NCBI GenBank assembly: GCA_021786315.1
Contig: JAJYNN010000002.1
Coordinates: forward strand, 545,494-609,493
DNA: 64,000 nt
From: a bacterium
GTDB taxonomy: Bacteria > Patescibacteriota > Microgenomatia > Daviesbacterales > UBA10151
Direction of reading: 5' to 3'
The stretch's first letter is position 1. The number at the start of each line of letters is the position of its first letter. The position numbers and the translations under genes were made by a program. The notes below the pieces were generated by a model that had not been told where the DNA came from, ran no database searches, and was given only the letters and a program-made list of their open reading frames with translations. Of the stretch, positions 1,925 through 47,209 are shown one piece after another.

Positions 1925-1991
1925 ATCCACGAAAAAGCGCCCTTTAGATCTTTCGATCCTCAAGGCGCTTACTTCACCATTCATTTTTGTG

Positions 1992-2234: not shown

Positions 2235-2248
2235 CTTTTACCTCCTGT

Positions 2249-2449: not shown

Positions 2450-2665
2450 CTTTAACCTCCTGTTTTTTTGTTTTTCCCATTATCTATCTAAAGGCATTAC
2501 TTTGCCATTAATTTCAATCTTAGGTCAAACACAAATTTTGAAGGTGCAAAAGAAAAAATAGCAGGAGAAAGAAATAAGACAAAGCTTAACTTGTCTCTTT
2601 CCCTCTCTTACATGAAGTGTATTCTACTAAATTTCAAGGGGGTAATCAAATATTATGGGCCTTTT

Positions 2666-4126: not shown

Positions 4127-4128
4127 AA

Positions 4129-4638
4129 CTAATTCCCGGCGGCTTGTTCAACTAAAAATACCTGGTCGCCGACACGGATCCCATTAGTGTCAATAAACCC
4201 GGTGTTGACCTCTAACATCATATCAACTGGGACAACCGGCGCATAGATAGGAAGGGTTGAATCCTTTTGGCCATCCAAAGGCGGTTGGACATTCCTTAAA
4301 AGATCAACAACTTTTCCCTGCCTGATAAAGATAAAGTCCAAAGGAAACTTCATTCCCCTCATCCAAAATTGGTATTTGCTCTCTTTAGGAAAAACAAACA
4401 GCATCCCGGAATCCGCTGGCAAGCTATCCCTTCCCCCCAACCCTTTACTTCTGAGTTCTGGGGTATCAGCTATCTCTATATTTAAGTATATATTGCCTAT
4501 TTTAATTTGATGGGCAGTAGACCGTGCTTGTTGGAATATGGGAGTAACCCCGCCCAATACTTGGGGATTGTATAAAACAAAAATCGAGCCAAGAATAACT
4601 AATCCCAAAAAAACAATTTGAATCCAAAATTTTTTCAA
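4129..4638 (-). CDS. DUF192 (COG1430) domain protein, N-terminal signal/TM
   Basis: LFVFPKESKYQFWMRGMKFPLDFIFIRQGKVVDL matches the DUF192 core. Confidence 0.6.
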   Translation of the reverse strand: MKKFWIQIVFLGLVILGSIFVLYNPQVLGGVTPIFQQARSTAHQIKIGNIYLNIEIADTPELRSKGLGGRDSLPADSGMLFVFPKESKYQFWMRGMKFPLDFIFIRQGKVVDLLRNVQPPLDGQKDSTLPIYAPVVPVDMMLEVNTGFIDTNGIRVGDQVFLVEQAAGN

Positions 4639-12138: not shown

Positions 12139-12434
12139 GAAGTTATTTTATCAAAGTTGTGACCCGGCTAACACTACTTTTTACTTCGTAAAAAGATGTT
12201 GTAATTCTCGCTTCGCTCAAATTATGTGGATTCGAAGGGCCTCTTCCTTAGTCAGACAGAAATAAAAAAGGCGAGGCATAAAACCCCGCTTTTTAATTGT
12301 GACCCGGCTGGGATAGGCACTCCTCGAAGACTCGGAGTTGAACCTCCTTAGCTGTGCCAGATGCGGAGATTCTCGATCCAATAACCGCCTCAAAAATGAA
12401 ATTGCGCTTGGAAAAACCAAACTCAATTTCATTG

Positions 12435-16702: not shown

Positions 16703-16810
16703 CAACACTATTTTCTCAACCCTACTGGCCTTCAGGATTATTTTTTGTTAAAATTACCACTACGGCGCGTTCGTCATAGTGCGCAAGCGCCAGACGAACT
16801 ACCTTGAAAA

Positions 16811-18406
16811 CTAAATATAGATGGCGCGTTCGTCTAGAGGCCTAGGACACTGGGTTTTCATCCCAGGAATCGCGGGTTCGAATCCCGCACGCGCTACTGA
16901 GAGGGATTGTAAGAAGGTTGTGTTTGATTTCCTCTGCGCGGGTGGGGGCGCGCAGAGCTCTCTAAAGCCCTGATTGTAGTCTACGGAAAGTTGCCGATTC
17001 AATAAAAAGAAGTTCGAGCCGACAGTTTTTGCTCCTATGCTTAAATCGGAGCATGTATTTTTTGCGCGCGCGATTTTTGCGCACGAAAGTGCGCTTCCGA
17101 CCCACTCTCTCATAGGTTCGAGCCAACTCGAACCGTTTTGTCTTATTCTCTCCAAATCTTCCTGAATTTTAAGTTTTTGTTCAAAAACTTCGTTCTTTTT
17201 ACTTTTATAAGTTTCACCATCTATTACCTGATCCAAGAAACTATCAAGTAACAAATTGAGCTTTTTATCTAAAGTTTCCAGCTCGTTTTTTAGGGAGATT
17301 ATATTTTCCTCAATGAACTTTTGCTCCTCAACTTCATCCCGATCCATCCATTTATACCAATCATGAGCCCAACTTTCGGGAATAGACACATCAGAAACAA
17401 TCTTTCTTACTTGTAGTTCTAAATCTTCTTGAGAAATATATTTTTGAGAACAAGGTTTAATTTTCTTAGTGCATCTATAGTAAATAAAGGTTTGTTTATT
17501 ACCATTTTTATATTTTTTAGTATGAGTTTCGGTAGTAATAGCCGCACCGCACTCTCCGCACCTCATCAAACCTCTAAAAGCAAAATCATGGCCATTTTTC
17601 CTTGGTCTTTCAATTCTTTTTATTTCTTGTTGAGCAGAATCAAATAGTTTTTTAGAGATAAATGTTTTATGAGAGCCCTGATAATACTCACCGTTATACT
17701 TTAAAATCCCAATATAAAATCTGTTGGATAGCATTTTCTTTATTTGGTTTATATGTAAAGGTTTTTTGTTTATGGTTGTACTTACCCAACCTCGAGTTAA
17801 CCCTAATTTGTGAAGATAGAGGGATATTTCCTTGTAAGATTTACCTCCCTCGGCAAAAAGTTCAAAGGCCTTTTTAATTGCTAAAGAAGTTTCCGGATCT
17901 ACTTGAACAGTTTTTGTATTCGAGTCGTTTTTATACCCGAAAGGTGCTTTCATTGGCCAAACTCCATTGCGAAGTTTTTGCCTTAGCCCACGTTTTACAT
18001 TTTCTGATAAGTTGTCGACATAATATTTGGATTGGCCAAAGGCAATATTTAGCATAAATTTTCCCTGTGGAGTATTTTCAAACCAGAAGGTAGGGAATTT
18101 AAGGTTTAGAAGATTACCGGTATCCAAGAGGTAAATTATTTGGCCGCCGTCAATTGAGTTACGAGCTAATCTATCGGGATGCCAGGCAATAATACCTTGT
18201 GCCTGTCCTTTCTCGATCTTTTTTATTACCTCTGCGAATTTTTCTCTTCCGGGGAGTTTAGCGGTTTTTGACTCTGTTATAAATTCTTTGATTTCTAAGT
18301 TCTCTCTTTTGGCAAATTCTTGAAGCTCAGCAATTTGAGCCTCAATAGAAAGGACTTGTCTATCCTTCTCATCTGTTGATTTTCGGCAGTATGCTATATA
18401 TTTCAT
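16811..18406 (-). CDS. large serine recombinase (resolvase/invertase catalytic domain + recombinase domain + Zn-ribbon + coiled coil)
   Basis: N-terminal YCRKSTDEKDRQVLSIEAQ (Y-x-R-x-S motif), GIIAWHPDRLARN, a Cys4 ribbon CGECG...YYRC, and a coiled-coil tail. The frame has no stop until 16811, so it reads through IR1-left into the tRNA-Glu antisense. The true 3' end is uncertain. Confidence 0.8.
   Translation of the reverse strand: MKYIAYCRKSTDEKDRQVLSIEAQIAELQEFAKRENLEIKEFITESKTAKLPGREKFAEVIKKIEKGQAQGIIAWHPDRLARNSIDGGQIIYLLDTGNLLNLKFPTFWFENTPQGKFMLNIAFGQSKYYVDNLSENVKRGLRQKLRNGVWPMKAPFGYKNDSNTKTVQVDPETSLAIKKAFELFAEGGKSYKEISLYLHKLGLTRGWVSTTINKKPLHINQIKKMLSNRFYIGILKYNGEYYQGSHKTFISKKLFDSAQQEIKRIERPRKNGHDFAFRGLMRCGECGAAITTETHTKKYKNGNKQTFIYYRCTKKIKPCSQKYISQEDLELQVRKIVSDVSIPESWAHDWYKWMDRDEVEEQKFIEENIISLKNELETLDKKLNLLLDSFLDQVIDGETYKSKKNEVFEQKLKIQEDLERIRQNGSSWLEPMREWVGSALSCAKIARAKNTCSDLSIGAKTVGSNFFLLNRQLSVDYNQGFRELCAPPPAQRKSNTTFLQSLSVARAGFEPAIPGMKTQCPRPLDERAIYI
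16823..16896 (+). tRNA. tRNA-Glu (anticodon UUC)
   Basis: GGCGCGTTCGTCTAGAGGCCTAGGACACTGGGTTTTCATCCCAGGAATCGCGGGTTCGAATCCCGCACGCGCTA. D-arm TTCGTCTAGAGGCC is typical of tRNA-Glu. Anticodon loop TTTTCAT. Confidence 0.9.
16894..16996. repeat. IR1-left: 103-bp perfect inverted repeat (partner 18490..18592)
   Basis: Exact reverse-complement match to 18490-18592, verified base by base. Overlaps the last 3 nt of tRNA-Glu. Confidence 0.9.
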
Positions 18407-18489
18407 GGCAGTTTATCTTTAGGGGAAAAGTTCTTTTAGCGACAGCGTTTCCCAGAAATTTTTGCGTGTCTTCTTACTATCTTTCTTTA

Positions 18490-18592
18490 CGGCAACTTTC
18501 CGTAGACTACAATCAGGGCTTTAGAGAGCTCTGCGCGCCCCCACCCGCGCAGAGGAAATCAAACACAACCTTCTTACAATCCCTCTCAGTAG
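18490..18592. repeat. IR1-right: 103-bp perfect inverted repeat (partner 16894..16996)
   Basis: Exact reverse complement of 16894-16996. Lies between the recombinase start (18406) and IR2. Confidence 0.9.
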
Positions 18593-18703
18593 TACGGTAT
18601 CAACAAATTCGAACCTATTTCAAATCGACGTATGCATCGGTCGGTCGGTAGAAGCCCCTCCGCTTCGCGTCGGGGCCTTCTGATCTTTAAGCTCGGCCTT
18701 CGG
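18589..18703. repeat. IR2-left: 115-bp perfect inverted repeat (partner 28385..28499)
   Basis: Exact reverse complement of 28385-28499. Abuts IR1-right, sharing 4 nt. Confidence 0.9.
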
Positions 18704-18764
18704 TCGAAGCTCTGAAACTGTCGGTTCCGAAAACGCAAAAATTTCAAAGAACTTTTCCAAAAAA

Positions 18765-21700
18765 TTATGCACTAAGTTGTATGTATGGATAATCCTTGTA
18801 AAGATTCTCTGCCTGTTCATATACCTTATCAACCATCAAGTCCACCTCTGCAAATGAAATATTATTCCTTAATAAGACTAACCTCACATCTGCTCTTACT
18901 CGAGCTTTAATAATTTCATGGTTAGTCCAGTCAATTGCTATATCTGCCCTTATAGCATGTATAATTTCTTTCACAATCCTCTTTAGATTACTATCTTTTA
19001 AAGACTTCTTACCCAGTGATAAGGCATCATAAAAAGCTAATTCCTCTACTGTTAATCCAATCTCCTTGCCAACTTCACTTGCTTGTCTAATTTCTCTAGC
19101 CAGTTCTAATAATTTATCTATCACTTTAGATGAATTGATAATATTGTTTTCATATTCCTCAATGATTTCTTCTAATTTATTAAGGAGAGTGTCATACCTT
19201 AAAATATTTGTTCTTCTGCGCATTTTTAATTCATCTTTTAACAGTTTGTTTATTGCCTCAATTGTTAGATTCTTAAATCTAGATTTCTTAATATCTTCCA
19301 GGAATCTTTCATCCAATATAGAAATATCAGGTTCCTCTCTCCCATTTTGAGAAAATATATCTATTACACCCTCAGCGACTATATTTTTTGAGATTAGATC
19401 TTTAATCGCGGTTTCTGTTTCATTACTTATATAGATTGGGTCTACAGTAGTGTTTTTAATGATAATTTTTCTAACTCCTTCGAAAAATTCTAGTTCTTCC
19501 CGAATATTATTTGCCGCTTTATGTGGCATTACTAAAGAGAAAAATTTATATAGTCTGCTGGAAAGGCTTAAGTATTGGTCTTTTTGTGCTGTATTTATAC
19601 CACCAGATACCGGATCCGTTAAAATTCCATTAACCGCTCTTGCAAAAAGTGACGCCAGTTCGCTACTAGGTAACTTATGCCAGTTGGTATATTCAATCCC
19701 TTCAAAAAATTTCTTTACTTTTTTATAGTGTTCTAACATTTTCGCGACCATCTCCTCTATTGGAACCATGGCTTGTTTTTGAACATCCGAAGTGTAGATT
19801 GCTAAAGCTTTCTTTAAGTTATCAGCAACACCAATATAATCAACAATTAACCCACCCTCTTTATCTTTATAGCGTCTGTTAACCCTAGCAATTGCCTGCA
19901 TCAAAGTATGACCTTCAAGAGGTTTATCTAAATAGAGTGTATTTAAATGAGGAACATCAAAGCCTGTAAGCCACATATCACAAACGATAACAATTTTTAA
20001 AGGATCTTCAGGATTTTTGAATCTTTTCTCAATTTCCCTATTATCTAACTCTTCTTGAATTTGTCCCTGAAAATCCTTACTGCCAGAAACAACAACAGCA
20101 ATTTCCGGTGCACCCTTCATTGTTTTGATAATTTCGTACATTCTTGCAGCAATTCTTCTACTCATAGTCACAAGTAATGCCTTTCCTTTATATCTTCTAT
20201 TTATAAAATGAAAAACGACATCATAAGCCACTTTTTGTAATCGATCCTCCGCTCCAATAGCGCTCTCCAAAGTAGCCCATTTATTCCTTAAGACGTCTTT
20301 TGTATCTATTGGATGCTCAGCTAATAATTGATCAAAGTCCAAATCAATGTATTTGTTGAAAACATGTAGAGGGGTTAATCGTCCTTCATAGTAGATTGGC
20401 ACCGTTGTTCCGTCCTCAACTGCTTTATCAATTGGATATTCACTAAATTCCTCACCAAAGACCATTTGTGTATTTCTGTTTTGCAAAGAGATTGGAGTAC
20501 CAGTAATACCCATAAAAGAGGCATTTGGTAAAACATCTCTAACATTGCCTGCAAATGTGGCATATTGCGATCTGTGCGCTTCGTCTGCAATCACGATAAT
20601 ATTTTCTCTTTCCGATAAAGGTTCTCTCGTATCAAACTTCTGAATAGTAGTAAATAGAACCTCGGATCCAGCTCCTTTTAGCTGATTAATTAATCCAGCG
20701 ATACTGCCTGCTTGTTTTACAGTGGGGTAACCTGTTCGCAAGAAAGTTTTATACAGCTGCTGATCCAAATCATTACGGTCTGTTAAAAACAGTATTGTCG
20801 GGCTTTTTAGTTGCTCCGCTCTTTTAGCTTTATTAACATAGAAAACCATAGATAAAGATTTTCCGCTTCCTTGTGTATGCCAAAAAACTCCAATCTTTTT
20901 ATTACTAACGATAGCTTGTAAAGTTCTTCCAATCGCTTTGTTCACGCCAAAATATTGATGATACATCGCCATCTTCTTGGTAAATTTAGAAGCATCTTTC
21001 TCAGCGTCTGCCTCAAAGACAATAAAGTTCTCAATTAGATCAAGTAAATGATTTTTATTAAACATTCCCTTTATCAAAAGTTCTAATTCTGACTTCTCTA
21101 GATTTTTTTCGTTCTCACTCTCTATTCCTTTCCAAACATTAAAAAAGTCGAAGGAAGACGAAATAGTTCCATGCTTCGCCTTCATTAGATCGCTGATAAC
21201 AAGTACCTGGTTATACAAAAATATCTTTGGAATTTCTTTTTTATACAAGTCGTGAATTTGTGAGTATGCGTCGGCAATTGTCACCTTTCCATCAACGGGA
21301 TTTTTTACTTCAAATAATCCCACGGGAATTCCGTTAATAAAAACGACCACGTCTGGAATTCTTATAGAAGATCCTTGAACAGAAAATTGGTTAACTACTA
21401 AAAACTCGTTGTTATCCGGATTTCTATAATCAATAATATTTACGATCTCACCTTTAAGATCATTATTTTTGTCTTTGACTTCTACTCTTATCCCTTCCGT
21501 CAACCACTTAAAAACTTCTTTGTTTCCTAACTCTAAATCCTGATGATCATATTTAGTGATCTTATCTACAACCTCGTTAACTTTTTCATCTGGAATATCT
21601 GGATTTATTCTTTTTAAAGATCTTTTTAGTCGCGTCTCTAGAACAACCTCTCTATAATCACTACGTTCTTGAAAAGTTCCGCCAGGGGAGATATCAGGAC

Positions 21701-21782
21701 CATATGCATGTTCATAACCCAATTCATTGAGCCATTCTAATACTGGTTTTTCTGCTAAATTATTTTCATTAAGTTTTGACAT
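18765..21782 (-). CDS. hsdR: type I restriction enzyme R subunit HsdR
   Basis: HTQGSGKSLSMVFYV (Walker A), IVIADEAHRSQY (DEAH box), helicase C motifs. 1005 aa. Confidence 0.95.
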   Translation of the reverse strand: MSKLNENNLAEKPVLEWLNELGYEHAYGPDISPGGTFQERSDYREVVLETRLKRSLKRINPDIPDEKVNEVVDKITKYDHQDLELGNKEVFKWLTEGIRVEVKDKNNDLKGEIVNIIDYRNPDNNEFLVVNQFSVQGSSIRIPDVVVFINGIPVGLFEVKNPVDGKVTIADAYSQIHDLYKKEIPKIFLYNQVLVISDLMKAKHGTISSSFDFFNVWKGIESENEKNLEKSELELLIKGMFNKNHLLDLIENFIVFEADAEKDASKFTKKMAMYHQYFGVNKAIGRTLQAIVSNKKIGVFWHTQGSGKSLSMVFYVNKAKRAEQLKSPTILFLTDRNDLDQQLYKTFLRTGYPTVKQAGSIAGLINQLKGAGSEVLFTTIQKFDTREPLSERENIIVIADEAHRSQYATFAGNVRDVLPNASFMGITGTPISLQNRNTQMVFGEEFSEYPIDKAVEDGTTVPIYYEGRLTPLHVFNKYIDLDFDQLLAEHPIDTKDVLRNKWATLESAIGAEDRLQKVAYDVVFHFINRRYKGKALLVTMSRRIAARMYEIIKTMKGAPEIAVVVSGSKDFQGQIQEELDNREIEKRFKNPEDPLKIVIVCDMWLTGFDVPHLNTLYLDKPLEGHTLMQAIARVNRRYKDKEGGLIVDYIGVADNLKKALAIYTSDVQKQAMVPIEEMVAKMLEHYKKVKKFFEGIEYTNWHKLPSSELASLFARAVNGILTDPVSGGINTAQKDQYLSLSSRLYKFFSLVMPHKAANNIREELEFFEGVRKIIIKNTTVDPIYISNETETAIKDLISKNIVAEGVIDIFSQNGREEPDISILDERFLEDIKKSRFKNLTIEAINKLLKDELKMRRRTNILRYDTLLNKLEEIIEEYENNIINSSKVIDKLLELAREIRQASEVGKEIGLTVEELAFYDALSLGKKSLKDSNLKRIVKEIIHAIRADIAIDWTNHEIIKARVRADVRLVLLRNNISFAEVDLMVDKVYEQAENLYKDYPYIQLSA

Positions 21783-21783
21783 A

Positions 21784-22602
21784 TTAGTGATCTTCCAATT
21801 GTAATTTTTGTTGAGGTTCTTTATATGACTCTATATCAACTACTTTAATTTTGGGAACCTCATAATCACTATTTCTTATTACTATCCCTCTCAACTGAAC
21901 TTTTTCCATTTCAAGATATTCGTGAAATTTCGTCGTACTCTTTTCTTTATCCAAAGGAGAAACATTTAAGGTGTACCCTTTATAAATAAATCCTAAATCA
22001 TTTAATTTTTTATTTATCCGTGTAATTTCTCCATCTATAACAACTTCCTCTCCGTTTCTAAGTTCCGGTAATATGGGATCTTCTTGTTTATCTACATAAA
22101 ATTGATACTTATTATCGCAAGTAATCTTGAATGACTTATCTCCTATAACGATTTCCGCATGTTCGTTGTATTCGCTAACTGGCCTCGCCATTTTTTCTGC
22201 ACCTTTTCTGAAATCATAACTTCTACATAATTCAAAGACCTTCTTGTCGGAAATGGCGTCTAACAATTCTTTTGTGGGATTCTTCAAGCTATTCGATCCA
22301 AATCTATCGATTATTACAAAGGCTGATACTATTATTGTGGCTACATAACTTATTCGCTCTACGGTTTGCCAGGGGTGCTTCTGAACATATATAAGCTTTG
22401 TTCTAACCGAACCATTTTCAATTGGAAGAACGTATATATTATCGTAAGCCAGCATTCCTATTTTTGCTGCTTCTTTTAAACATGTCTCCAAGCCAATAAT
22501 TGCTTCTCCTAACTCTTTAGCTGGCATTGCACTTTTTTCCGCAGAATACACTAAGAATATTTCCGATGAAGAGGGATCGACTTGGAATAGTTGTTGATTC
22601 AT
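21784..22602 (-). CDS. hypothetical protein embedded between hsdS and hsdR (no recognisable domain)
   Basis: 272-aa ORF, translationally coupled on both sides (1-nt gaps) inside the hsdM-hsdS-X-hsdR operon. Confidence 0.5.
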   Translation of the reverse strand: MNQQLFQVDPSSSEIFLVYSAEKSAMPAKELGEAIIGLETCLKEAAKIGMLAYDNIYVLPIENGSVRTKLIYVQKHPWQTVERISYVATIIVSAFVIIDRFGSNSLKNPTKELLDAISDKKVFELCRSYDFRKGAEKMARPVSEYNEHAEIVIGDKSFKITCDNKYQFYVDKQEDPILPELRNGEEVVIDGEITRINKKLNDLGFIYKGYTLNVSPLDKEKSTTKFHEYLEMEKVQLRGIVIRNSDYEVPKIKVVDIESYKEPQQKLQLEDH

Positions 22603-23745
22603 CTAAATTGTTATTTCTCCTTTCATTAATTTTGGTAAAAGCAAATCACGCAAAGCAGTTAATTTTTGATTTTCCAGCTTTAAACTGATCATAGTTCTGT
22701 AAGTAACATCAAAAATATTTATATTTTTATTGTCAGATATAAAAATATTTTGTTCTTTTAAATGCTCTTTTTTAATATGTCCCATGGTCGTAGCTTTGGC
22801 ACCCGCCTGTTGTTGAAAAAATTTTAGCTTCGACTTAAGAAGAAAATATATAAACCCTTTGGAAAAATCACTTGTTGGAACTACATTAAATATATGCTGG
22901 TTTAATATCGCCTTATCTTTATCCCAGATATACAAATCTACTGTACCAGACCAAGAGAATAGCAAGTCACCGTTTTGGATGTAATATTTATCGTCCACCT
23001 TTTTGTCTATCCATTCAGTATTATCTGAAACTCCTCTGTTTAAGTCAGCAATTTTTATTAGCGGAAGTCCTTTCTTCATTCTGTTTGTAATTTTTCCAAA
23101 AGCCCCGCCATTAATATAATTCGCTATATCCAACAATGAATATTTAGTACCTTCATTAGAGGAGAACCATTTTTTAAAAAATGTCTGGGCCATTTCTTCT
23201 AAAGTTTTTGAAATTTTATTGTTCACTTCAATCTTTTCATCTAATGCAGCTAAAATTCTGGAAATTTTTTTTTGTATAGACAATGGAGGGGTTGGAACTA
23301 AAACATTCTCGAAAGTACCAAGATTAATATTGTCTTGTGCGCTACCGATGGCATAACTTTGAATATTTCTCTTAAGATATTGCAGAGAATATAGAATAAA
23401 ATCTGGATCGCTTTTTTCTTCGTCTGCTAAAAAACCGATTACACTATCAGGGAAACACGCCGGAAAAGTTAGTTTTCCTAAATCTGCAATATTTGCTGCG
23501 ATCGTTATACAAATTGTATTAACGGGCCACATCCTACTTTGTTTTAAACCATTTTCACTGTATGTTTGTGAATATGAAGTTATTCGACCACCTGAGGCTT
23601 TCACATCACCTGTTTGTATAAATGGGTACGGACCACCATACAATATCCTTGCGTCTCTTGGCCGATGTCGAGATCTTCCTCTATTAAGTTCACCTAACTG
23701 AGTTAATTTTTTTAATTGCCAATTATCTGGAATCTGATTTTGCAT
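22603..23745 (-). CDS. hsdS: type I restriction-modification specificity subunit HsdS (two target-recognition domains)
   Basis: 380 aa. Duplicated TRD/conserved-helix architecture. Positioned between hsdM and hsdR. Confidence 0.85.
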   Translation of the reverse strand: MQNQIPDNWQLKKLTQLGELNRGRSRHRPRDARILYGGPYPFIQTGDVKASGGRITSYSQTYSENGLKQSRMWPVNTICITIAANIADLGKLTFPACFPDSVIGFLADEEKSDPDFILYSLQYLKRNIQSYAIGSAQDNINLGTFENVLVPTPPLSIQKKISRILAALDEKIEVNNKISKTLEEMAQTFFKKWFSSNEGTKYSLLDIANYINGGAFGKITNRMKKGLPLIKIADLNRGVSDNTEWIDKKVDDKYYIQNGDLLFSWSGTVDLYIWDKDKAILNQHIFNVVPTSDFSKGFIYFLLKSKLKFFQQQAGAKATTMGHIKKEHLKEQNIFISDNKNINIFDVTYRTMISLKLENQKLTALRDLLLPKLMKGEITI

Positions 23746-23746
23746 A

Positions 23747-25537
23747 TTAATAATTAATCTTTTTTAGATTTTCTAAAATTTCCTTTTCTAATTTTTCAGA
23801 TTTTGTGAAATATTGTTTTAGTTCTGATTCTAATTCTTTCATCTTTTCTTCGAACGGAACTCCATCCTCCTCTTCATCCTCCACTCCAACAAAACGACCC
23901 GGTGTTAAAACATAACCACTTTTTACAATTTCCTCTTTTGTTGTTGCCTTACAAAATCCGGAAACATCTTTATATTCTCCATTTTCGCTCCTCCAAGCCC
24001 TCACAGTATTAGCAATTAGCTGAACTTGTTCTTCATTAAAAGTCACTTGTTTTCGAGAGATTTGAGTAAAATATTTTGAGTCTCGAGCATCAATGAAAAG
24101 AGTTTCTCCTTTTCTGTTTCTGAATCTGCCGGATTCTTTATTTTTTGTGACAAACCATAACGACACTGGAAGGGAAACATTAAAAAATAGTTTTGGAGGA
24201 CAAGCAATTATTACATCAATCAGATCATCCTCAATCATTCTTTTTCTGATTTCACCTTCCTTGCCGGAAACAGCCAACGCTCCATTAGCCATTACAAATC
24301 CAGCTATTCCATTTGGGGTTAAGTGGTTTATAAAATGTTGAATCCACATAAAGTTAGCATTTCCTTTCGGAGGAGTGCCATAAACTAATCTCGGATCTTT
24401 TTCAGAAAGACGATCTGAATCCCATTCTGCATTAAATGGAGGATTAGCCAGGATAAAATCGACTTTAAGTTCTCTGAACTTGTCATCATAGTAAGAATTA
24501 CCAAATTGGATATTTCCAAAAACTCCACGGATAGCAAGATTCATCTTGCAGAGCTTTAAAGTTGTTTGATTACTTTCTTGGCCGAATATGGATATTTTTG
24601 TCGGATCTTTATGGTGCTCTTGCAAGAATTTGCTGGACTGGACAAACATTCCACCAGACCCACAACATGGGTCTAAAACCCTACTGTTTTCATAAGGTTC
24701 AAGAATTTCAACTAAAAGTTTTACTAGCGAACGAGGTGTATAAAATTCTCCTCCTCTTTTACCCTCAGCATCAGCAAACTGTCCCAAGAAATATTCATAG
24801 ACTCTACCAAGTAAATCTTTCTCTCTATCCTCATCATCGTTGAAATCTATCCGGGAAAAAATATTAATGAGTTCTCCTAAGATTTGACTTTCAAGTGGAA
24901 CGCGAACATAACTCTTTGGCAGAACTCCTGTCAGCTGTTCAGGGTTTTCATTTTCTATAGCTTCCATAGCATCGTCGATATACTTCGCTAAATCTGATAA
25001 GGCAGCTTTGCTTCTCAAATATTCCCATCTGGCGATTTCTGGAATATAAAAGATCCCCTCCTTCTTATACATGTCTTTATCTTCCAAAATCATTTCTCGA
25101 GCAGCGGGGTTAGGGATATAGTATTGCTTGTTTTTGGAATCACTCATCCATTTTTGAAGTTTTTCTCTTCTTTGGTAAAAAGAATCAGAAATATACTTAA
25201 GGAAAATAAGACCTAAAACGACATTCTTGTAATCAGAAGAATCAATATTACCCCTAAGTCTATCTGCAGCTGCCCATAGCTCTTTTTCAAAATGAATATC
25301 TGTTTTAGGTTTACTAGCTAAATCCCGAGCTTCCTTTGCTGTAGCTTTTTGAGTTTGGATAATTCTATCTTTAAAATCCTGAGGAAGAGTATTGTACTTT
25401 AGAAGATATTTTTTACCCTCTGTTCGTGTTTCGATTTCTCCAGCATTAATTTTACCTTGGAGTTGCTTTAAAACAGCCTGACGAGATATACCTAATATCC
25501 TGGCGATATCACTAATTGAGATAAAATTTTCATCCAT
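23747..25537 (-). CDS. hsdM: type I restriction-modification N6-adenine methyltransferase HsdM with extra N-terminal HTH-like domain
   Basis: HsdM_N motif ELWAAADRLRGNIDSSDYKNVVLGLIFLKYISD, SAM motif LDPCCGSGGM, catalytic NPPF (FILANPPFN). The first ~85 aa (ISISDIARILGISRQAVLKQL) are an additional HTH. Confidence 0.95.
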   Translation of the reverse strand: MDENFISISDIARILGISRQAVLKQLQGKINAGEIETRTEGKKYLLKYNTLPQDFKDRIIQTQKATAKEARDLASKPKTDIHFEKELWAAADRLRGNIDSSDYKNVVLGLIFLKYISDSFYQRREKLQKWMSDSKNKQYYIPNPAAREMILEDKDMYKKEGIFYIPEIARWEYLRSKAALSDLAKYIDDAMEAIENENPEQLTGVLPKSYVRVPLESQILGELINIFSRIDFNDDEDREKDLLGRVYEYFLGQFADAEGKRGGEFYTPRSLVKLLVEILEPYENSRVLDPCCGSGGMFVQSSKFLQEHHKDPTKISIFGQESNQTTLKLCKMNLAIRGVFGNIQFGNSYYDDKFRELKVDFILANPPFNAEWDSDRLSEKDPRLVYGTPPKGNANFMWIQHFINHLTPNGIAGFVMANGALAVSGKEGEIRKRMIEDDLIDVIIACPPKLFFNVSLPVSLWFVTKNKESGRFRNRKGETLFIDARDSKYFTQISRKQVTFNEEQVQLIANTVRAWRSENGEYKDVSGFCKATTKEEIVKSGYVLTPGRFVGVEDEEEDGVPFEEKMKELESELKQYFTKSEKLEKEILENLKKINY

Positions 25538-25627
25538 GCCGGAAGCAGTATAGTACTAAAAAATAATTCTGTCAAGTTGTCATCGTGACAACCTTAAATT
25601 AGAAATAATTGCGATACAAGAGTTTCT

Positions 25628-26485
25628 TCAGTAACACTTTTTAGTGCTACTACCCTCTAAATAATAAGACTCTTTTTTAGGATCAAACCGATATGTATTC
25701 TTTTCTTCGGTATCACTTCCATGATCTCCACAAGACCAACCTTGCTCAACCTTCCCTTCAGAATTTGGCAGAAAGTTATCGACCCAGTAGAAAGTTTGAT
25801 CTTTGTTGATTATTGGATAGACAACAGCTTTATTATTGGCCTTACTATATCCCAAGACTAAATGTTCAGTATGTCCACAAGCCAAAGTAAAACCATTTAG
25901 GAGAAACTCATAATAATACCCATCGCCGTTTAAATCCTGAAAATTCATCAAGTCCACATCTGTATACTCGAGTTGTTCTACAGAAGGTTCGCTACCTTCC
26001 AATTTCAAATAAGCCGGATCAGCGTTCATTCTGATATTTTGATAAGCTAAACGGATATTATTGCTTGGAGGTAATGGTTTCCCTGTACTTAAATCTACAT
26101 TAGAGCCCGAACCCGGAATCGAAACATCATTAATAAGTTTGTTGTTTTGTATCAGGGCTAAATGATAGTTACCTTCAATCGCTCTTCCCTCTATGCCGGA
26201 AGCACAAGAAGTATAAGCAGACCATCTGCGGGATGGTTCTAATAATTCGTCTGTTTTAGAGTTTAATACATAGAGCACCAAGTACGATTCAGGAGAAAGA
26301 TTGGGAATTTTCTTATATTCTCGGAGTAATGCTTCTTTGGGAATTAAGTTCTTGATAGAACTGTCGCTAATATTTGTTTTATCGGGTTTATTTATGTTTT
26401 TTGTATCAATTTTTAAAGAGGGAAAATAGAAGAAACCAACAATCAACACAAATGGAATGATAAATAATAACTTTTTTCTGCTCAT
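25628..26485 (-). CDS. secreted/membrane-anchored Cys-containing hypothetical protein
   Basis: N-terminal TM LLFIIPFVLIVGFFYF. No recognisable domain. Confidence 0.4.
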   Translation of the reverse strand: MSRKKLLFIIPFVLIVGFFYFPSLKIDTKNINKPDKTNISDSSIKNLIPKEALLREYKKIPNLSPESYLVLYVLNSKTDELLEPSRRWSAYTSCASGIEGRAIEGNYHLALIQNNKLINDVSIPGSGSNVDLSTGKPLPPSNNIRLAYQNIRMNADPAYLKLEGSEPSVEQLEYTDVDLMNFQDLNGDGYYYEFLLNGFTLACGHTEHLVLGYSKANNKAVVYPIINKDQTFYWVDNFLPNSEGKVEQGWSCGDHGSDTEEKNTYRFDPKKESYYLEGSSTKKCY

Positions 26486-27273
26486 TTATTACTATCAAAA
26501 ATATTTATTTCAGATACATTAATAACATTGGCTTCTCTAGTTAGGTTTCCTTTAACCATTACTTGTTTGTTTATAGAATTGTTGATGGTATTGAGGGCTG
26601 TTTGGGATTTTGGGAGTAGCTTCCATAAAGTTGTATCGGGTAAAGATAAATAGTATTGTCCGTCTTGAGTTTTCTGAATAGTTCCTTGATAGACAATAGC
26701 TCGATGAAGGATAGGGCTTGAGTTAGGGAAAAGAATTCCGGCAGCCGAATTTAGACCAGAGGTATAACCAGTTCCGAAAGAAGCTGCGAGGGCAATCATA
26801 ATAGCTACTGCAGTCATAGGCTTAATTCTAAACTTAAATCCAATATCTATGCCCTCGTTTCCCAAAAGGTGTTTAATCCATTTTTTAAAGTAAGTTACGG
26901 GATTAGTAACTTTCACATCCACCATTGGAGGATCATTATTTTCTGAGTATTTATCATTTTGGGTTACTTGGATTGGAGCAGGGTAAGAGGAATCAGGGTG
27001 ATCAGGGATATTAGGGGAAATTGGAGGATTGGGATTATCAGGGACAGTATAATCACTTTTAATAAAGTGTCCTTGGGCATCTCGCTTTTGGTGTTTTGCT
27101 AATTCACTTTGAACAGGGTCTATTAAGTCAGGAGAAGGATTTGAAGGAATAGGAGGAATGGGGGTATCAGGGAAATTGGGGGGATTCGGGGAAGGAGTTT
27201 GAGCTAATGGTTCGGGTTGAGTTGGTTGTTGAGGGGTAAAGGAATTATTAGGATCAGGCAGTTTGTCATCCAT
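26482..27273 (-). CDS. Pro-rich membrane-anchored hypothetical protein (paralog B of 15092..16069)
   Basis: Shares the DPPMVDVKVTNPVTYFKKWIKHLLGNEGIDIGFKFRIKPMTAVAIMIALAASFGTGY core with the chromosomal paralog. Confidence 0.5.
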   Translation of the reverse strand: MDDKLPDPNNSFTPQQPTQPEPLAQTPSPNPPNFPDTPIPPIPSNPSPDLIDPVQSELAKHQKRDAQGHFIKSDYTVPDNPNPPISPNIPDHPDSSYPAPIQVTQNDKYSENNDPPMVDVKVTNPVTYFKKWIKHLLGNEGIDIGFKFRIKPMTAVAIMIALAASFGTGYTSGLNSAAGILFPNSSPILHRAIVYQGTIQKTQDGQYYLSLPDTTLWKLLPKSQTALNTINNSINKQVMVKGNLTREANVINVSEINIFDSNK

Positions 27274-27339
27274 AAATCCAGTATATCTACTAGATTAGAA
27301 AGGTGCAACTGCAGCGGAAATATACAAAAAGTTATCCAA

Positions 27340-28330
27340 TATATTGTGTATTGACTCGGCTTTCCATACAAGGTGTAAAATTTAATTACTCTCTGCAGTA
27401 GCGGAGGTAGAAGGGAGGGCCATGAATTTGACCCAACTTTTGTACTCCGTGAGTATCTTTGGTAATTGAAACTAGCAAACGGACAAGCAAGGAGGATCCA
27501 AATAACCTTGCTTACTTAATTGTTCAGGGAAGATTACTGACAACACTCTAGCGGAGGCTCACCTTTGTCTTACCTAAAGGTTAAGTGTTGTCTACCGGAA
27601 AATTGGGAGAGAATAACCAATCAAAGCAAACTGAGACGTCGGTTTGGGGAGATATAGGTATTAGGTACTTTTGTAGGTGAGAGGGCCACTCAGTATTCTC
27701 ACTGGGTGGCCTTTTCTTTATTCTCCTTGCAAACTCTTTTCTCTTCTGTGGCGGTTCCGCCGCCCCCGCCCCTTTGGGATAATAACCGTTCAGGAGGGCA
27801 GCACCTTAGAAGAAATCTTTTTGGAATTAGTAGTAAGTAAAATGGGTGCTGCCCGACAATAGCGAGGGCCGAGAAAGCCAAGTCATATTTTAGAAGAACC
27901 GGCCCGAGCCCTCGGAATTAGTGCGAGAAAGTTTCTCGAGAAACTTTCGAGCGGCATGGATGCAAGTAGGGCTAAAAATTGCGGCGGGGGCGATTGCGGA
28001 CAAACCCCCGCAACGGCAGGAGGTATTAGAAAGAAGAAAAGGGTAGGCGAAAAGTACCGAAGGTAACCTTACCCAACGAACTTTTCGCCGAGTTAGATAC
28101 TACCAATACTAGTTCGTAAGGCAACAATATAGGCGAGGCGCCCCCTAGGGCGACCTCTCGCCCAAAAGCGGGGGTGCCGCTACTACTAATTTGGGTGGGT
28201 GGGTTAGTTCAGGATACAAGATTTACTCTTCTTACCCGTTACCGTAGCGGTAACGGTATCCGTAACGGTCCGTTACGGTGATTAGCTTGTCAAAAACCGC
28301 TAAACTCCCCATTCTTAAATATCTTAATAA
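27340..28330 (+). other. ~1 kb GC-rich non-coding region with dense predicted secondary structure (candidate structured ncRNA and/or iteron/ori-like region)
   Basis: No ORF of 62 aa or longer on either strand. GC-rich helices in an AT-rich genome. Several helices only work with G-U pairs on the + strand. Contains a 22-bp perfect palindrome and four ~11-nt CCGTTACGG-type repeats. Confidence 0.3.
27684..27720 (+). terminator. rho-independent terminator-like hairpin inside the non-coding region
   Basis: GGCCACTCAGT-attctc-ACTGGGTGGCC followed by TTTTCTTTA. Confidence 0.5.
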
Positions 28331-28384
28331 TTCTTTAAAAATCGCGCGCTTTTCTGTCTCTTAGCAAAAAATACCAGAGCGAGG

Positions 28385-28499
28385 CCGAAGGCCGAGCTTA
28401 AAGATCAGAAGGCCCCGACGCGAAGCGGAGGGGCTTCTACCGACCGACCGATGCATACGTCGATTTGAAATAGGTTCGAATTTGTTGATACCGTACTAC
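28385..28499. repeat. IR2-right: 115-bp perfect inverted repeat (partner 18589..18703)
   Basis: Exact reverse complement of 18589-18703. Confidence 0.9.
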
Positions 28500-28510
28500 A
28501 AAAGAAAAAG

Positions 28511-28540
28511 TCCTCCCTTCGGGGAGGCTTTTTGTTTTTT
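28511..28540. terminator. bidirectional rho-independent terminator
   Basis: CCTCCC-TTCG-GGGAGG hairpin with a T-run on the + strand (CTTTTTGTTTTTT) and an A-run before it. Insulates the island from the sigma/anti-sigma operon. Confidence 0.65.
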
Positions 28541-28639
28541 AACTGTGATTAGGCAAGAATCTGCGCATCTCGCAGAGCTAAGCAGGTTCGATCAGGCAAA
28601 GCCTGACAACATCTTCGAGCAAAGCGAGAAGTAGTGTTA

Positions 28640-28657
28640 ATCCCCGCACGCGCTACT
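28640..28657 (+). repeat. direct repeat of tRNA-Glu 3' end (putative attR core)
   Basis: atccccgcacgcgctact versus tRNA 16882-16898 atcccgcacgcgctact (one extra C). Preceded by the motif acaacatcttcgagcaaagcgagaagtagtgtta. Confidence 0.7.
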
Positions 28658-29219
28658 TGTTACGATTAAAATGGTGAGTTTTTAGACCCTTAACCTCACC
28701 GTTTCCTTTTTGAGTTTCAGAAGCAGCCCGCCGCAATTTTTCCGAAGAAGCAGGATTCTTCCGGGCTTCATCTTCAAACTTTCTTCCCTGAATATTGATC
28801 TCCTTTTTAACTTCCTCTTTCCGGGCAGAACTGCTTGCCATATTTTCACTATCCTTTACCGCTTCCTGATAATGCTCAATCGCATCATCCAATTTCTTTG
28901 GGTCATTACTTACTTTCAAAACATCATCGCCCCTTCTTTCTATAATTAAGGAGGGGTTATTGGTGGCTTTGGCCACTATATTATCAGCCAATACTTTAAT
29001 CGGATAGAACGTGTCCCCGGGTTCAGCTGCCTGAACTACCCCTCCAAACCCGCCTAGAATTATTAATGCCCCAATCAAACTCAAGACTATCTTTGAATAA
29101 GGAACAGGCGAATTATAAGCATTCTGATCACCCAATTTGGACTCCAACTTTTTCCACTCTTTATCAGGATTATTATCTGAAATATTAATATAGCTTTTTC
29201 TTAATTCCTCTAATTTCAT
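28653..29219 (-). CDS. putative anti-sigma factor / membrane protein downstream of ECF sigma
   Basis: Single TM IVLSLIGALIILGGFGGVV. Start overlaps the sigma gene stop by 4 nt. Confidence 0.4.
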   Translation of the reverse strand: MKLEELRKSYINISDNNPDKEWKKLESKLGDQNAYNSPVPYSKIVLSLIGALIILGGFGGVVQAAEPGDTFYPIKVLADNIVAKATNNPSLIIERRGDDVLKVSNDPKKLDDAIEHYQEAVKDSENMASSSARKEEVKKEINIQGRKFEDEARKNPASSEKLRRAASETQKGNGEVKGLKTHHFNRNK

Positions 29220-47183: not shown

Positions 47184-47209
47184 GTCCCCATAAAGGGGAC
47201 TACTTTTTT
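47184..47209. terminator. bidirectional terminator hairpin
   Basis: AAAAAA-GTCCCC-ATAAA-GGGGAC-TACTTTTTT. Confidence 0.55.

What the first reader, a model, noticed from the sequence alone, without database searches (positions are those of the whole stretch)
16763..28657. ~11.7 kb island at the tRNA-Glu 3' end carrying a large serine recombinase and a type I R-M operon, closed by a copy of the tRNA 3' end
The island starts at the last base of tRNA-Glu (16896). An 18-nt copy of the tRNA 3' end (atccccgcacgcgctact, one indel) recurs at 28640-28657, in the att-duplication pattern of tRNA-targeting integrative elements.

The only recombinase inside is a large serine recombinase (16811-18406). No tyrosine integrase, Rep or relaxase was seen. 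This is unusual, because tRNA 3'-end duplication is normally a tyrosine-integrase signature.

Cargo:
- the hsdM-hsdS-unknown-hsdR operon
- two exported hypotheticals
- ~1.1 kb of structured GC-rich non-coding DNA

A bidirectional terminator (28511-28540) insulates the right end. A 14-nt copy of the tRNA-Glu 5' end, with a hairpin, sits at 16763-16800 just outside the left end.
Basis: partly seen in the sequence, partly recalled or inferred. Interest (0 to 1): 0.85.

Follow-up and report, generated by a model that had tools for sequence, protein, structure and literature searches.

The report
Serine-recombinase island at tRNA-Glu end
An 11.6-kb mobile island carrying a restriction-modification system sits at the very end of a tRNA-Glu gene; it belongs to a large, apparently undescribed family in Patescibacteria-type (CPR) assemblies, driven by a large serine recombinase and built with an extra inverted copy of its own attachment site.

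Summary
It runs from the tRNA-Glu 3' end (core CTAC, 16894-16897) to 28499, not to the 15-nt tRNA copy at 28643-28657. That copy belongs to a small repeat seen downstream of 4 of the 6 tRNAs in the window.

- X, 103 nt, flanks the recombinase gene.
- Y, 115 nt, flanks the cargo.

They meet at an internal inverted site, Y-core-X, that looks like an intact attP.

The same plan recurs in about 40 related loci. A tRNA of varied identity abuts the recombinase 3' end in 60 of 68 loci. The Y arm carries GTTCGAAT 4-5 bp further from the core than the tRNA T-loop motif, which is the canonical attP/attB offset of large serine integrases.

Two nested insertions into relatives' recombinase genes show the whole double-repeat unit inserted, with a 2-nt overlap at the junctions.

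Cargo varies widely and includes many R-M genes. A subfamily, including this island, carries a conserved structured non-coding module.

I found no excised form or empty site for this genome. The role of the internal attP is unknown.

The parts
16823..16897 (+). tRNA-Glu(UUC), the target gene. Its T-loop GGTTCGAAT plus the acceptor 3' strand act as the B-type half-site of attL.
   Evidence: ARAGORN and Rfam. The GTTCGA motif lies 18 nt from the core here and in 30 of 41 sites scored.
16894..16897 (+). Core CTAC, roughly tRNA positions 71-74 by my reading of the acceptor stem. This is copy 1 and lies in attL. The same 4 nt recur at 18589-18592 (reverse complement), 28496-28499 and 28654-28657.
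   Evidence: Junction comparison.
16894..16996 (+). X arm (P' side of attL). It contains the hairpin CTCTGCGCG-GGTGGGGG-CGCGCAGAG and encodes recombinase residues about 471-504 on the - strand.
   Evidence: Perfect 103-nt inverted repeat. Hairpin fold. tblastn finds the duplicated C-terminal segment.
16811..18406 (-). Large serine recombinase ORF of 531 aa. The last roughly 28 codons are antisense tRNA-Glu.
   Evidence: Pfam. More than 7600 homologs. Alignment A1 with catalytic residues invariant.
18490..18592 (-). X' arm, the inverted copy of X. Its inner edge lies 84 nt upstream of the recombinase start codon.
18565..18625 (-). Internal inverted attP-like site. On the - strand it reads GGTTCGAATTTGTTGATACCGTA-CTAC-TGAGAGGG (Y-core-X).
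   Evidence: The motif offset of +4/+5 bp matches attP versus attB geometry.
18589..18703 (-). Y' arm, the inner copy of the P-type arm.
   Evidence: Perfect 115-nt inverted repeat.
18765..25537 (-). Cargo: type I R-M operon. hsdM 23747-25537, hsdS 22603-23745, an embedded 272-aa OB-fold protein 21784-22602, and hsdR 18765-21782.
25628..27273 (-). Cargo: two hypothetical proteins (25628-26485 and 26482-27273) with hydrophobic segments. No family hits.
27739..28225 (+). Conserved structured non-coding module, either an RNA or structured single-stranded DNA. It always lies next to the outer Y arm and always in this orientation.
   Evidence: nhmmer hits in 9 other loci. 47 predicted pairs, 18 with compensatory changes. 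89.6% of cells paired against 81% in shuffles and about 45% in slid controls; 0 of 500 shuffles reach the observed values. No Rfam match.
28385..28499 (+). Y arm plus core. This is attR and the true right end of the element.
   Evidence: The same kind of far junction was found in 24 related elements.
28500..28642 (+). Host DNA outside the element. It holds the tRNA terminator (28512-28527) and a small tRNA-flank repeat.
   Evidence: Repeats at 53413-53446 and 47101-47121, and downstream of tRNA-Lys.
28643..28657 (+). 15-nt copy of the tRNA-Glu 3' end. It is the end of the small repeat, not of the recombinase island.

Best explanation
Window 16898-28499 is an integrated mobile island, bounded on the left by the shared core at 16894-16897. 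A divergent large serine recombinase (LSR) moves it, and it inserts at the extreme 3' end of a tRNA gene.

Shown:
1. The layout is tRNA-core-X / recombinase (antisense to the tRNA) / X'-core'-Y' / cargo / Y-core-host.
2. X and Y are each perfect inverted-repeat pairs.
3. The layout is conserved across a large family found in Patescibacteria-type assemblies.

Inferred:
1. tRNA-core-X is attL, Y-core-host is attR, and the internal inverted Y-core-X is an intact attP copy.
2. The recombinase recognises the tRNA T-loop motif GGTTCGAAT as a B-type half-site, and the same motif in Y, 4-5 bp further out, as a P-type half-site.
3. Exchange occurs at a 2-bp crossover inside the core, which corresponds roughly to tRNA positions 71-74. 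The tRNA therefore stays whole.
4. The other half-sites (X, and the host DNA downstream of the tRNA) share no such motif, so site identity seems to be set mainly by one half-site.
5. The island carries variable cargo, here a type I R-M system with an embedded OB-fold protein.

Not established: the role of the internal attP. My preferred reading is that it is a functional second recombinase-binding site. It could act as an operator or decoy, or as an inversion partner of attL. Gene conversion between the arms would keep them identical.
For: Family-wide association with tRNAs:
- In 60 of 68 related loci with enough downstream sequence, a tRNA on the opposite strand abuts or overlaps the recombinase 3' end. 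Thirteen tRNA identities are represented.

Conserved repeat architecture:
- X repeats of about 80-150 nt were found in about 40 loci. In 20 of 43 loci the arms have no mismatch over 90 nt.
- Where mismatches appear, they lie beyond a sharp inner edge, so those arms are simply shorter.
- Y repeats flank 0.7-9.7 kb of cargo in about 26 loci.
- The core shared by all three sites is usually 4-6 nt, taken from the end of the particular tRNA.

Canonical LSR att geometry:
- GTTCGA lies 18 nt from the core in the tRNA arm and 22-23 nt in Y. The offset is +4 in 16 loci and +5 in 11.
- This matches the roughly 5-bp shift of the zinc-ribbon-domain motif between attP and attB reported for LI/A118 integrase (PMC3783163).

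Direct evidence of insertion:
- In L208 and L216 a complete X-recombinase-X'-Y'-cargo-Y unit interrupts another recombinase gene between ..FMLSI and AFGQ.., with exactly a 2-nt overlap. Rejoining the flanks restores the ORF.

Mobility and target switching:
- Recombinase modules 84-94% identical in DNA sit at different tRNAs, in genomes whose host flanks show no similarity.

This window:
- The reconstructed empty site (tRNA, then terminator, then small repeat) matches the paralogous tRNA-Asp locus.
- The catalytic residues are intact.
- Island GC is about 33-37% against about 40-42% in the flanks.
Against: - No empty site, excised circle or strain lacking the island was found for this genome.
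- No recombination directionality factor was identified.
- The att sites are atypical for LSRs. Only one half-site of each carries the recognisable motif.
- No known LSR element that I am aware of, or found in 7 full-text searches, carries an internal inverted attP. The attL/attP/attR labels are therefore inferred from geometry, not tested.
- Module orientation is nearly fixed: recombinase versus tRNA 60:1, and the non-coding module 10:0. This argues against frequent inversion at the internal site.
Confidence: 0.75

Rival explanations
1. The island spans the tRNA end to 28657 and integrated by recombination within a 15-18-nt identity block at the tRNA 3' end. The direct repeat at 28640-28657 is attR.
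For: The 15-nt repeat is statistically real. It lies in direct orientation 11.7 kb from the tRNA. Two related loci (L024, L060) also have a 15-19-nt direct copy of the tRNA end 5-6 kb away.
Against: - The same kind of 14-17-nt copy occurs 59-150 nt downstream of tRNA-Lys, tRNA-Asp and tRNA-Thr, which carry no island. The spacer sequence there is homologous.
- Direct tRNA-end repeats are absent from most related elements.
- The conserved Y arm plus core ends at 28499 and is followed by a typical tRNA terminator.
Confidence: 0.06
2. The recombinase is a DNA invertase, not an integrase. The X and Y repeats are inversion sites that flip the recombinase gene and the R-M cargo, giving phase variation. 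The locus is a fixed chromosomal switch.
For: - Two perfect inverted-repeat pairs lie with a recombinase between them.
- One flipped recombinase module was seen (L065 compared with L072).
- The arms evolve in concert: 449 concerted sites against 60 discordant.
Against: - Orientation is almost invariant: 60:1 for the recombinase and 10:0 for the non-coding module.
- Cargo is unrelated between relatives.
- Near-identical modules occur at different tRNAs in unrelated flanks.
- Nested insertions show movement of the whole unit.
- The cargo is preceded by its own 1.1-kb upstream region inside the invertible segment, so its promoter presumably flips with it (inference; no promoter was mapped).
Confidence: 0.08
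3. Two separate elements with terminal inverted repeats lie side by side: a 1.7-kb recombinase unit with X ends and a cargo unit with Y ends. Each inserts through a palindromic attP formed by joining its own ends.
For: In the window, a central TA would allow a palindromic X'-TA-X site. The target so formed, tRNA|Y', would have GTTCGAA motifs in both half-sites.
Against: - Many cores contain no palindromic dinucleotide (TCACC, CAAC, CACCA). A palindromic site therefore cannot work across the family.
- X-only or Y-only units were not seen next to tRNAs.
- In both nested insertions the X unit and the Y unit arrived together, with a single 2-nt overlap.
Confidence: 0.05
4. The island is an immobile relic. 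The recombinase is retained for another role or is decaying, and the repeats are historical.
For: No excised or empty form was detected for this genome. A 22-nt recombinase fragment at 28289-28310 hints at past rearrangement.
Against: The ORF is intact with invariant catalytic residues. Both repeat pairs are 100% identical. Close relatives are clearly mobile.
Confidence: 0.06

Closest known systems
Large serine integrases of phages and integrative elements (LI/A118, Bxb1, phiC31, SPbeta SprA)
   Same: - Same three-domain enzyme, with conserved catalytic Ser and Arg residues.
- A 2-nt crossover overlap.
- A recognition motif placed 4-5 bp further from the centre in the element-side site than in the host-side site.
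   Different: - At most about 31% identity to phage integrases. The only PDB hit by sequence is a catalytic domain, 3g13.
- The target is the extreme 3' end of many different tRNAs.
- Only one half-site per att site carries the motif.
- The element keeps an internal inverted attP and two perfect inverted-repeat pairs.
- The recombinase ORF runs across attL.
- No directionality factor was identified.
- The family is almost absent from viral contigs, with 4 hits in IMG/VR.
tRNA-targeting islands and prophages with tyrosine integrases
   Same: Insertion at a tRNA 3' end, with the integrase gene next to the intact tRNA. Variable cargo that includes many defence genes.
   Different: There is no tyrosine integrase. 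The element's ends share only 4-6 nt, not a 15-50-nt duplicated tRNA 3' segment. Insertion is after the discriminator base rather than inside the tRNA.
phiRSM filamentous phage integrase, and Mycobacterium AICE serine recombinases predicted at tRNA-Leu
   Same: These are serine recombinases associated with a tRNA target (PMC4471427; PMC3218068).
   Different: phiRSM Int is a small resolvase-type enzyme with a 13-bp tRNA-Ser core, on an ssDNA phage. The AICE cases are predictions, and those elements encode conjugation and replication functions. Neither source describes nested inverted repeats or an internal attP.
Clostridial LSR transposons Tn4451 (TnpX) and Tn5397 (TndX). This comparison rests on my own knowledge and was not checked here.
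   Same: An LSR gene at one end of a cargo-carrying element, excision and insertion at a 2-bp core, and relaxed target choice.
   Different: Those elements have no tRNA target, no 100-nt perfect inverted-repeat pairs and no internal copy of the joint.
Yeast 2-micron plasmid (FLP) and CTXphi folded attP. These are architectural analogies only, from my own knowledge; CTXphi's use of XerC/D and dif appears.
   Same: Two inverted copies of a recombination site divide the element into two unique segments. A single-stranded circle of this element would fold into a double-stranded attP.
   Different: Those systems use tyrosine recombinases. There is no evidence here for a replicating circle or for a single-stranded stage.

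Membership tests
Large serine recombinase (serine integrase) family | N-terminal resolvase catalytic domain with a Ser nucleophile and conserved Arg/Asp residues | tested here: met
   PF00239, E 1.8e-22. R8, S10, D78, R79, L80 and R82 are invariant in 22 sequences. These correspond to Bxb1 R8, S10, D81, R82, L83 and R85 as listed in PMC12884075.
Large serine recombinase (serine integrase) family | C-terminal Recombinase domain plus zinc ribbon domain | tested here: met
   PF07508, E 1.6e-13. PF13408, E 6e-11. The coiled-coil insert was not tested separately.
LSR integrative element (attP x attB giving attL and attR) | 2-bp crossover, with a conservative and precise insertion | tested here: met
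   In two nested insertions the flanks overlap by exactly 2 nt (AA in L208, GA in L216), and rejoining restores the target ORF. This was shown for relatives, not for the window's own copy.
LSR integrative element (attP x attB giving attL and attR) | The same DNA motif in attP and attB half-sites, shifted about 5 bp toward the centre in attB | tested here: met
   GTTCGA lies at 22-23 nt in Y against 18 nt in the tRNA. The offset is +4 or +5 in 27 of 31 loci. Reference geometry comes from PMC3783163. It is met for one half-site only; X and the host side lack the motif.
LSR integrative element (attP x attB giving attL and attR) | An empty attB in related genomes, or an excised circle | tested here: inconclusive
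   None was found for this genome. Indirect support comes from the paralogous tRNA-Asp locus and from uninterrupted recombinase genes, which serve as empty sites for the nested subfamily.
LSR integrative element (attP x attB giving attL and attR) | A recombination directionality factor for excision | not testable with these tools
   These factors have no common signature. The conserved module contains no gene other than the recombinase.
Tyrosine-integrase tRNA island | A tyrosine integrase gene at the tRNA-proximal end | tested here: not met
   None of the island ORFs scanned has a Phage_integrase domain. None appeared among the 25 most frequent Pfam families of 80 cargo ORFs from relatives.
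Tyrosine-integrase tRNA island | Direct repeat of the tRNA 3' segment at both ends of the element | tested here: not met
   The 15-nt copy lies 144 nt beyond the conserved end and belongs to a repeat present at other tRNAs. Most relatives lack such a copy.
Invertible DNA switch (inverton) | Both orientations of the segment present among genomes or reads | tested here: not met
   Recombinase module 60 convergent to 1 flipped. The non-coding module is next to the outer Y arm in 10 of 10 loci. Read-level data were not available.
IS or transposon with terminal inverted repeats | The two termini of the mobile unit are inverted repeats of each other | tested here: not met
   The termini are X on the left and Y on the right, and they are unrelated. 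Each repeat pair links one terminus to the internal site.
Type I restriction-modification system (cargo) | HsdR, HsdM and HsdS subunits in one operon | tested here: met
   Pfam and PADLOC. REase_I E 2.4e-255, MTase_I E 3.9e-163, Specificity_I E 3.6e-79.
Known RNA families (Rfam 15), for the non-coding module | Match to a curated covariance model | tested here: not met
   Only tRNAs reach the gathering score in the window. In 27000-28900, only two weak matches near the terminator have E below 1.

The most novel reading that the evidence does not exclude
The internal inverted attP and the two perfect repeat pairs exist because the element passes through a single-stranded stage.

- A single strand of X-recombinase-X'-core'-Y'-cargo-Y folds into two long hairpins. 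Their stems together rebuild a double-stranded attP, giving a dumbbell.
- Alternatively, the internal site acts as a splint. It brings the two ends of an incoming linear strand together so that they can be joined into a circle.
- This would let an element with no conjugation or phage genes spread by DNA uptake, for example natural transformation. That these bacteria are naturally competent is my assumption and was not examined.
- The strand-specific structured module next to Y would then serve as a single-strand origin.
- This would be the first serine-recombinase element that uses a folded single-stranded attachment site, analogous to CTXphi with XerCD or to integron attC sites.
Probability: 0.12. 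Interest if true: 0.92.

Novelty: new variant of a known kind. Interest (0 to 1): 0.78.

Why it matters
**tRNA targeting by a serine integrase.** tRNA genes are the classic landing sites of tyrosine integrases. One survey found serine integrases at t(m)RNA genes in only 14 of 297 cases and called for experimental proof (PMC7192596). Another called such integration rare (PMC3218068). Here a very large family does this systematically. The search returned more than 7600 homologs, and the source names that exist place them in Patescibacteria, Parcubacteria and Microgenomates. The target is the extreme 3' end of at least 13 different tRNA types.

**Possible route for gene flow in CPR-type genomes.** The surveyed elements carry no recognisable conjugation, replication or phage genes among the most frequent cargo families. 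They could therefore be an important route for moving defence and other genes in these small genomes.

**A system for studying recognition.** Three features make it a natural case for studying how serine integrases recognise sites and control directionality:
- recognition apparently through one half-site;
- easy switching between tRNAs;
- an extra inverted attP that travels with the element.

It may also be a source of recombinases aimed at a near-universal sequence, the T-loop.

**Further leads.** A subfamily inserts into the recombinase gene of its relatives, which is an element-against-element conflict. The conserved structured non-coding module is a second lead.

Tried and rejected
1. **Empty site or excised form.**
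   - An exact search of JGI metagenomes for the predicted attB found nothing.
   - A search with the tRNA-Glu 3' end returned 120 loci from unrelated organisms.
   - Look-ups of flanking proteins returned only contigs identical to the window. The two short contigs carrying the right-flank gene and the 9-kb left-flank contig stop about 30 nt inside X or Y; a fourth stops inside the tRNA.
2. **Direct tRNA-end repeats as a family signature.** Absent from most relatives.
3. **Palindromic attP, or two elements with terminal inverted repeats.** Rejected because many cores have no palindromic dinucleotide, and because the X and Y units insert together.
4. **Guide RNA for target choice.** The non-coding module shows no more complementarity to its own tRNA than to other tRNAs.
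5. **Known RNA family for the non-coding region.** None found.
6. **Phage origin.** Only 4 of 2.9 million viral contigs encode a relative.
7. **Hairpin-loop flip between arms as a general feature.** Seen only in L208. In other loci the apparent arm mismatches are simply shorter arms.
8. **Promoter scans.** Hits do not exceed the shuffled expectation.
9. **Literature.** Seven full-text searches found no description of this family.
10. **A third nested insertion.** L215 could not be analysed because the contig ends 358 nt upstream of the fused gene.


Full report
**1. What is in the window**

- ARAGORN and Rfam place tRNA-Glu(UUC) at 16823-16897 on the + strand.
- A 531-aa ORF lies on the - strand at 16811-18406. 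It has the three domains of a large serine recombinase (LSR): Resolvase, Recombinase and Zn_ribbon_recom.
- Its last roughly 28 codons (..VARAGFEPAIPGMKTQCPRPLDERAIYI) are the reverse complement of the tRNA. The ORF therefore runs across the junction.
- To the right lie hsdR, a 272-aa unknown ORF, hsdS and hsdM, then two hypothetical ORFs, all on the - strand.
- After these comes 1.1 kb of non-coding DNA.
- GC is 33-37% across the genes, against about 40-42% in the flanks. It rises to 44-48% in the non-coding stretch.
- The 15-nt string CCCGCACGCGCTACT occurs at 16884-16898 and at 28643-28657. Chance expectation is 0.03 matches.

**2.

- The repeat finder shows two perfect inverted repeats.
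  - X, 103 nt: 16894-16996 and 18490-18592.
  - Y, 115 nt: 18589-18703 and 28385-28499.
- X brackets the recombinase gene. The left arm encodes residues about 471-504. The inner edge of the right arm is 84 nt upstream of the start codon.
- Y brackets the entire cargo.
- The two pairs abut at 18589-18592.
- Four junctions share the tetranucleotide CTAC:
  - A: tRNA..gcg-CTAC-TGAGAGG (X)
  - B, read on the - strand: ..GGTTCGAATTTGTTGATACCGTA-CTAC-TGAGAGG (Y then X)
  - C: ..GATACCGTA-CTAC-AAAAGAAAAAG (Y then host)
  - D: ..cccgcacgcg-CTAC-TTGTTACG
- Immediately after C comes a bidirectional terminator hairpin at 28512-28527.

**3. The family**

- The recombinase search returned more than 7600 hits. 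The best 120 share 44-73% identity with the query. The few that carry a source name are labelled Patescibacteria, Parcubacteria or Microgenomates.
- In many of the aligned sequences the C-terminal tail contains GFEP, GIEP or GVEP. These are antisense T-loops.
- I fetched 80 loci from species-representative genomes. Some record titles name other taxa; I did not verify the taxonomy.
- In 60 of the 68 loci with at least 120 nt downstream, a tRNA on the opposite strand abuts or overlaps the recombinase 3' end. The tRNAs are Pro, Leu, Lys, Glu, Arg, Tyr, Trp, Val, Gln, Ile, Ser, Gly and Asn.
- Direct copies of the tRNA end further along are rare.
- An inverted copy of the junction upstream of the recombinase is nearly universal.
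- X arms measure about 80-150 nt. The X-to-X' unit is 1.55-1.83 kb.
- A second inverted pair (Y, 50-166 nt exact) encloses 0.7-9.7 kb of cargo in about 26 of the 33 loci with enough sequence.
- The far junction always reads Y arm, then 2-10 nt (mode 4) identical to the end of that particular tRNA, then unrelated sequence. Examples are CGAC for Pro, TCACC for Lys, CAAC for Gln, CTGC for Trp and CCGC for Ser. By my reading these correspond roughly to tRNA positions 71-74.

**4. Why I read the sites as attL, attP and attR**

- Read toward the core, the Y arm looks like a pseudo tRNA 3' half: a conserved GTTCGAAT followed by a T-rich spacer.
- The motif starts 18 nt from the core boundary in the tRNA arm (30 of 41 sites scored) and 22-23 nt from it in Y (28 of 41). 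The offset is +4 in 16 loci and +5 in 11.
- Rutherford et al. showed that the zinc-ribbon-domain motif of LI integrase sits at positions 16-24 in attP half-sites. It is shifted 5 bp toward the centre in attB (PMC3783163).
- The geometry here fits that rule if the crossover lies within the core.
- The X side has only a weak purine-rich motif, and the host side is not conserved. Recognition therefore appears to rest mainly on one half-site. That is not canonical.

**5. Evidence that the whole unit moves**

1. Homologs of about 900 aa are in-frame fusions. One specific recombinase subfamily, highly similar among its members, is joined to residues about 122 onward of diverse other family members. 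Ten of the twelve sequences retrieved join at ..AFGQSKY.., and the other two read AFSQSKY or SFSQSKY.
2. In L208 the inserted DNA is a complete X1-recombinase-X1'-Y1'-ORF-Y1 unit of 2.84 kb. The displaced N-terminal fragment lies beyond it. The flanks overlap by 2 nt (AA), and rejoining gives ..MLSIAFGQ...
3. L216 shows the same nested plan with perfect arms of 85 and 95 nt and a 2-nt overlap (GA). It lies inside an outer element that has its own X (95 nt) and Y (80 nt) pairs.
4. These are occupied-versus-empty comparisons with the 2-bp signature of serine recombinases.
5. Recombinase modules 84-94% identical in DNA sit at different tRNAs: Ser-cga and Ser-gct, Gln-ttg and Gln-ctg, and Tyr, Leu and Arg. 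The 3-kb host flanks of those genomes show no similarity.
6. Cargo differs completely between elements. It includes type II methyltransferases, Alw26I, HpaII and HindIII endonucleases, Mrr, Vsr, a Shedu domain, a reverse transcriptase and LexA-like proteins. It also includes enolase, CrcB and transporters.
7. Viral contigs almost never carry the family.

**6. The right boundary and the 15-nt copy**

- Part of 28500-28642 recurs next to tRNA-Thr (53413-53446, 97%) and tRNA-Asp (47101-47121).
- tRNA-Lys, tRNA-Asp and tRNA-Thr each have a 16-17-nt copy of their own 3' end 59-150 nt downstream. The spacers are related to one another.
- After removing 16898-28499, the tRNA-Glu locus has the same plan as tRNA-Asp: tRNA, terminator, small repeat, then a copy of the tRNA end.
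- The copy at 28643-28657 therefore belongs to a different, small repeat system tied to tRNA flanks. The LSR element ends at 28499.

**7. The inverted repeats**

- The arms are perfect up to a sharp inner edge in nearly all loci.
- Between loci they differ at 15-30 of 90 sites, and both arms of a locus share the same state. I counted 449 concerted sites against 60 discordant. Some homogenising process therefore acts on them.
- Orientation is nearly fixed.
  - The recombinase is convergent with the tRNA in 60 loci. One flipped case was found, L065.
  - The non-coding module is beside the outer Y arm in 10 of 10 loci.
- Frequent inversion is therefore unlikely. Gene conversion between the arms is the simplest account.
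- Both arms contain stable GC-rich hairpins. The median z-score is about -2.9 against shuffles.
- Several hairpins share the loop GGTGGGG(G/T) on different stems.
- The conserved protein motif LCAPPPAQ is simply this hairpin translated.
- Why the element keeps an internal inverted attP is not explained by anything I could test.
- Possible roles are an operator or decoy site, an inversion partner for attL, or a device for a single-stranded stage (see the novel case).

**8. The non-coding region**

- A module at 27739-28225 is conserved in nine other loci (two of them partial matches), always in the same place and orientation.
- RNAalifold predicts 47 pairs, 18 of them with compensatory changes.
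- 89.6% of cells are paired, against 81% in shuffles and about 45% in slid controls. None of 500 shuffles reaches the observed values.
- An invariant U-G pair and several G-U variants point to the + strand as the functional one.
- It matches no Rfam family.
- It shows no target-specific complementarity.

**9. Other cargo**

- The 272-aa ORF between hsdS and hsdR has 30 homologs and no Pfam domain.
- Relatives occur in another type I operon in L208, where a 256-aa unannotated ORF holds the same position (not compared directly). One homolog lies next to a type ISP enzyme and another lies alone.

**10. Comparison with what is known**

- The enzyme is a divergent LSR. It is at most about 31% identical to phage integrases. 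Its only PDB hit by sequence is the catalytic domain 3g13.
- Use of tRNA genes by serine integrases is described as unknown or rare in the papers I read:
  - 14 of 297 predicted cases (PMC7192596);
  - eight predicted Mycobacterium AICEs, and phiRSM with a small resolvase-type enzyme (PMC3218068, PMC4471427).
- I found no description of an attL, inverted attP, attR layout.

**11. Verdict**

- The locus is a member of a large, apparently undescribed variant of LSR integrative elements.
- Mobility is shown for relatives and inferred for this copy.
- The mechanism behind the extra attP is open.

Noticed in passing
window 12300-12434 (-), 47040-47211 (-), 53387-53462 (+), 28500-28657 (+): Four of the six tRNAs in the window (Lys, Asp, Thr, Glu) are followed, 59-150 nt downstream, by a 14-17-nt direct copy of their own 3' end. 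The spacers share a repeat (GAATCTSCGCATCTSGCASAGCTAAGSAGGTTCRAY ... CTTCGAGCAAAGCGAGAAGTAGTGTTA). They look like miniature insertions or scars at tRNA ends, of unknown origin.
   Followed up: partly
L208 (reverse-complement coordinates about 1290-4128) and L216 (reverse-complement coordinates about 1170-4175); proteins P0002, P0003, P0005-P0008, P0010, P0019, P0023, P0024, P0054, P0086: One recombinase subfamily inserts its whole element into the recombinase gene of other family members, at essentially the same codon (..FMLSI|AFGQ..). This yields in-frame fusion ORFs of about 900 aa and a displaced N-terminal fragment. It amounts to an element that parasitises related elements.
   Followed up: yes
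window 27739-28225 (+): A conserved structured module of about 450 nt with strong covariation and no Rfam match. It is found in a subfamily of these elements beside the outer Y arm. It is a candidate new non-coding RNA or a structured single-stranded DNA element.
   Followed up: partly
window 28289-28310 (+) versus 18251-18272: A 22-nt stretch identical to recombinase codons about 45-52 lies in sense orientation on the + strand, inside the non-coding region near the Y arm. The segment is specific to this window and is unexplained.
   Followed up: no
window 16764-16800: An exact 12-nt copy of the tRNA-Glu 5' end (GGCGCGTTCGTC) lies 59 nt upstream of the tRNA. It sits within a hairpin (GTTCGTC...GACGAAC). 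None of the other five tRNAs has such a copy.
   Followed up: partly
window 21784-22602 (-): The unknown gene embedded between hsdS and hsdR encodes a protein with an OB-fold region. Relatives occur in another type I operon and next to a type ISP enzyme, so it may be an R-M accessory or defence protein.
   Followed up: partly
L065 1870-3524: tRNA-Asn lies directly upstream of the recombinase on the same strand. This is the only flipped recombinase module among about 61 loci. Its relative L072 has the usual convergent layout.
   Followed up: partly
window 16932-16957 and 18529-18554; X and Y arms of L004, L034, L012, L035: GC-rich hairpins with the conserved loop GGTGGGG(G/T) on different stems occur in both X and Y arms. 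The protein motif LCAPPPAQ is this hairpin translated. A related GGGTGGGTGGGTT run ends the structured module.
   Followed up: partly
window 27679-27716 (+): A strong terminator-like hairpin of 16 pairs plus a T run lies just upstream of the structured module. This suggests a separate + strand transcript in 27300-27720.
   Followed up: no
L208 reverse-complement coordinates about 2880-2895, compared with the junctions near 1290 and 4128: The internal attP of the nested element keeps GA at the crossover, while both outer junctions have AA. This suggests integration tolerated a one-base mismatch in the central dinucleotide. The hairpin loop also differs between the two X1 arms in a way that resembles an inversion.
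   Followed up: no
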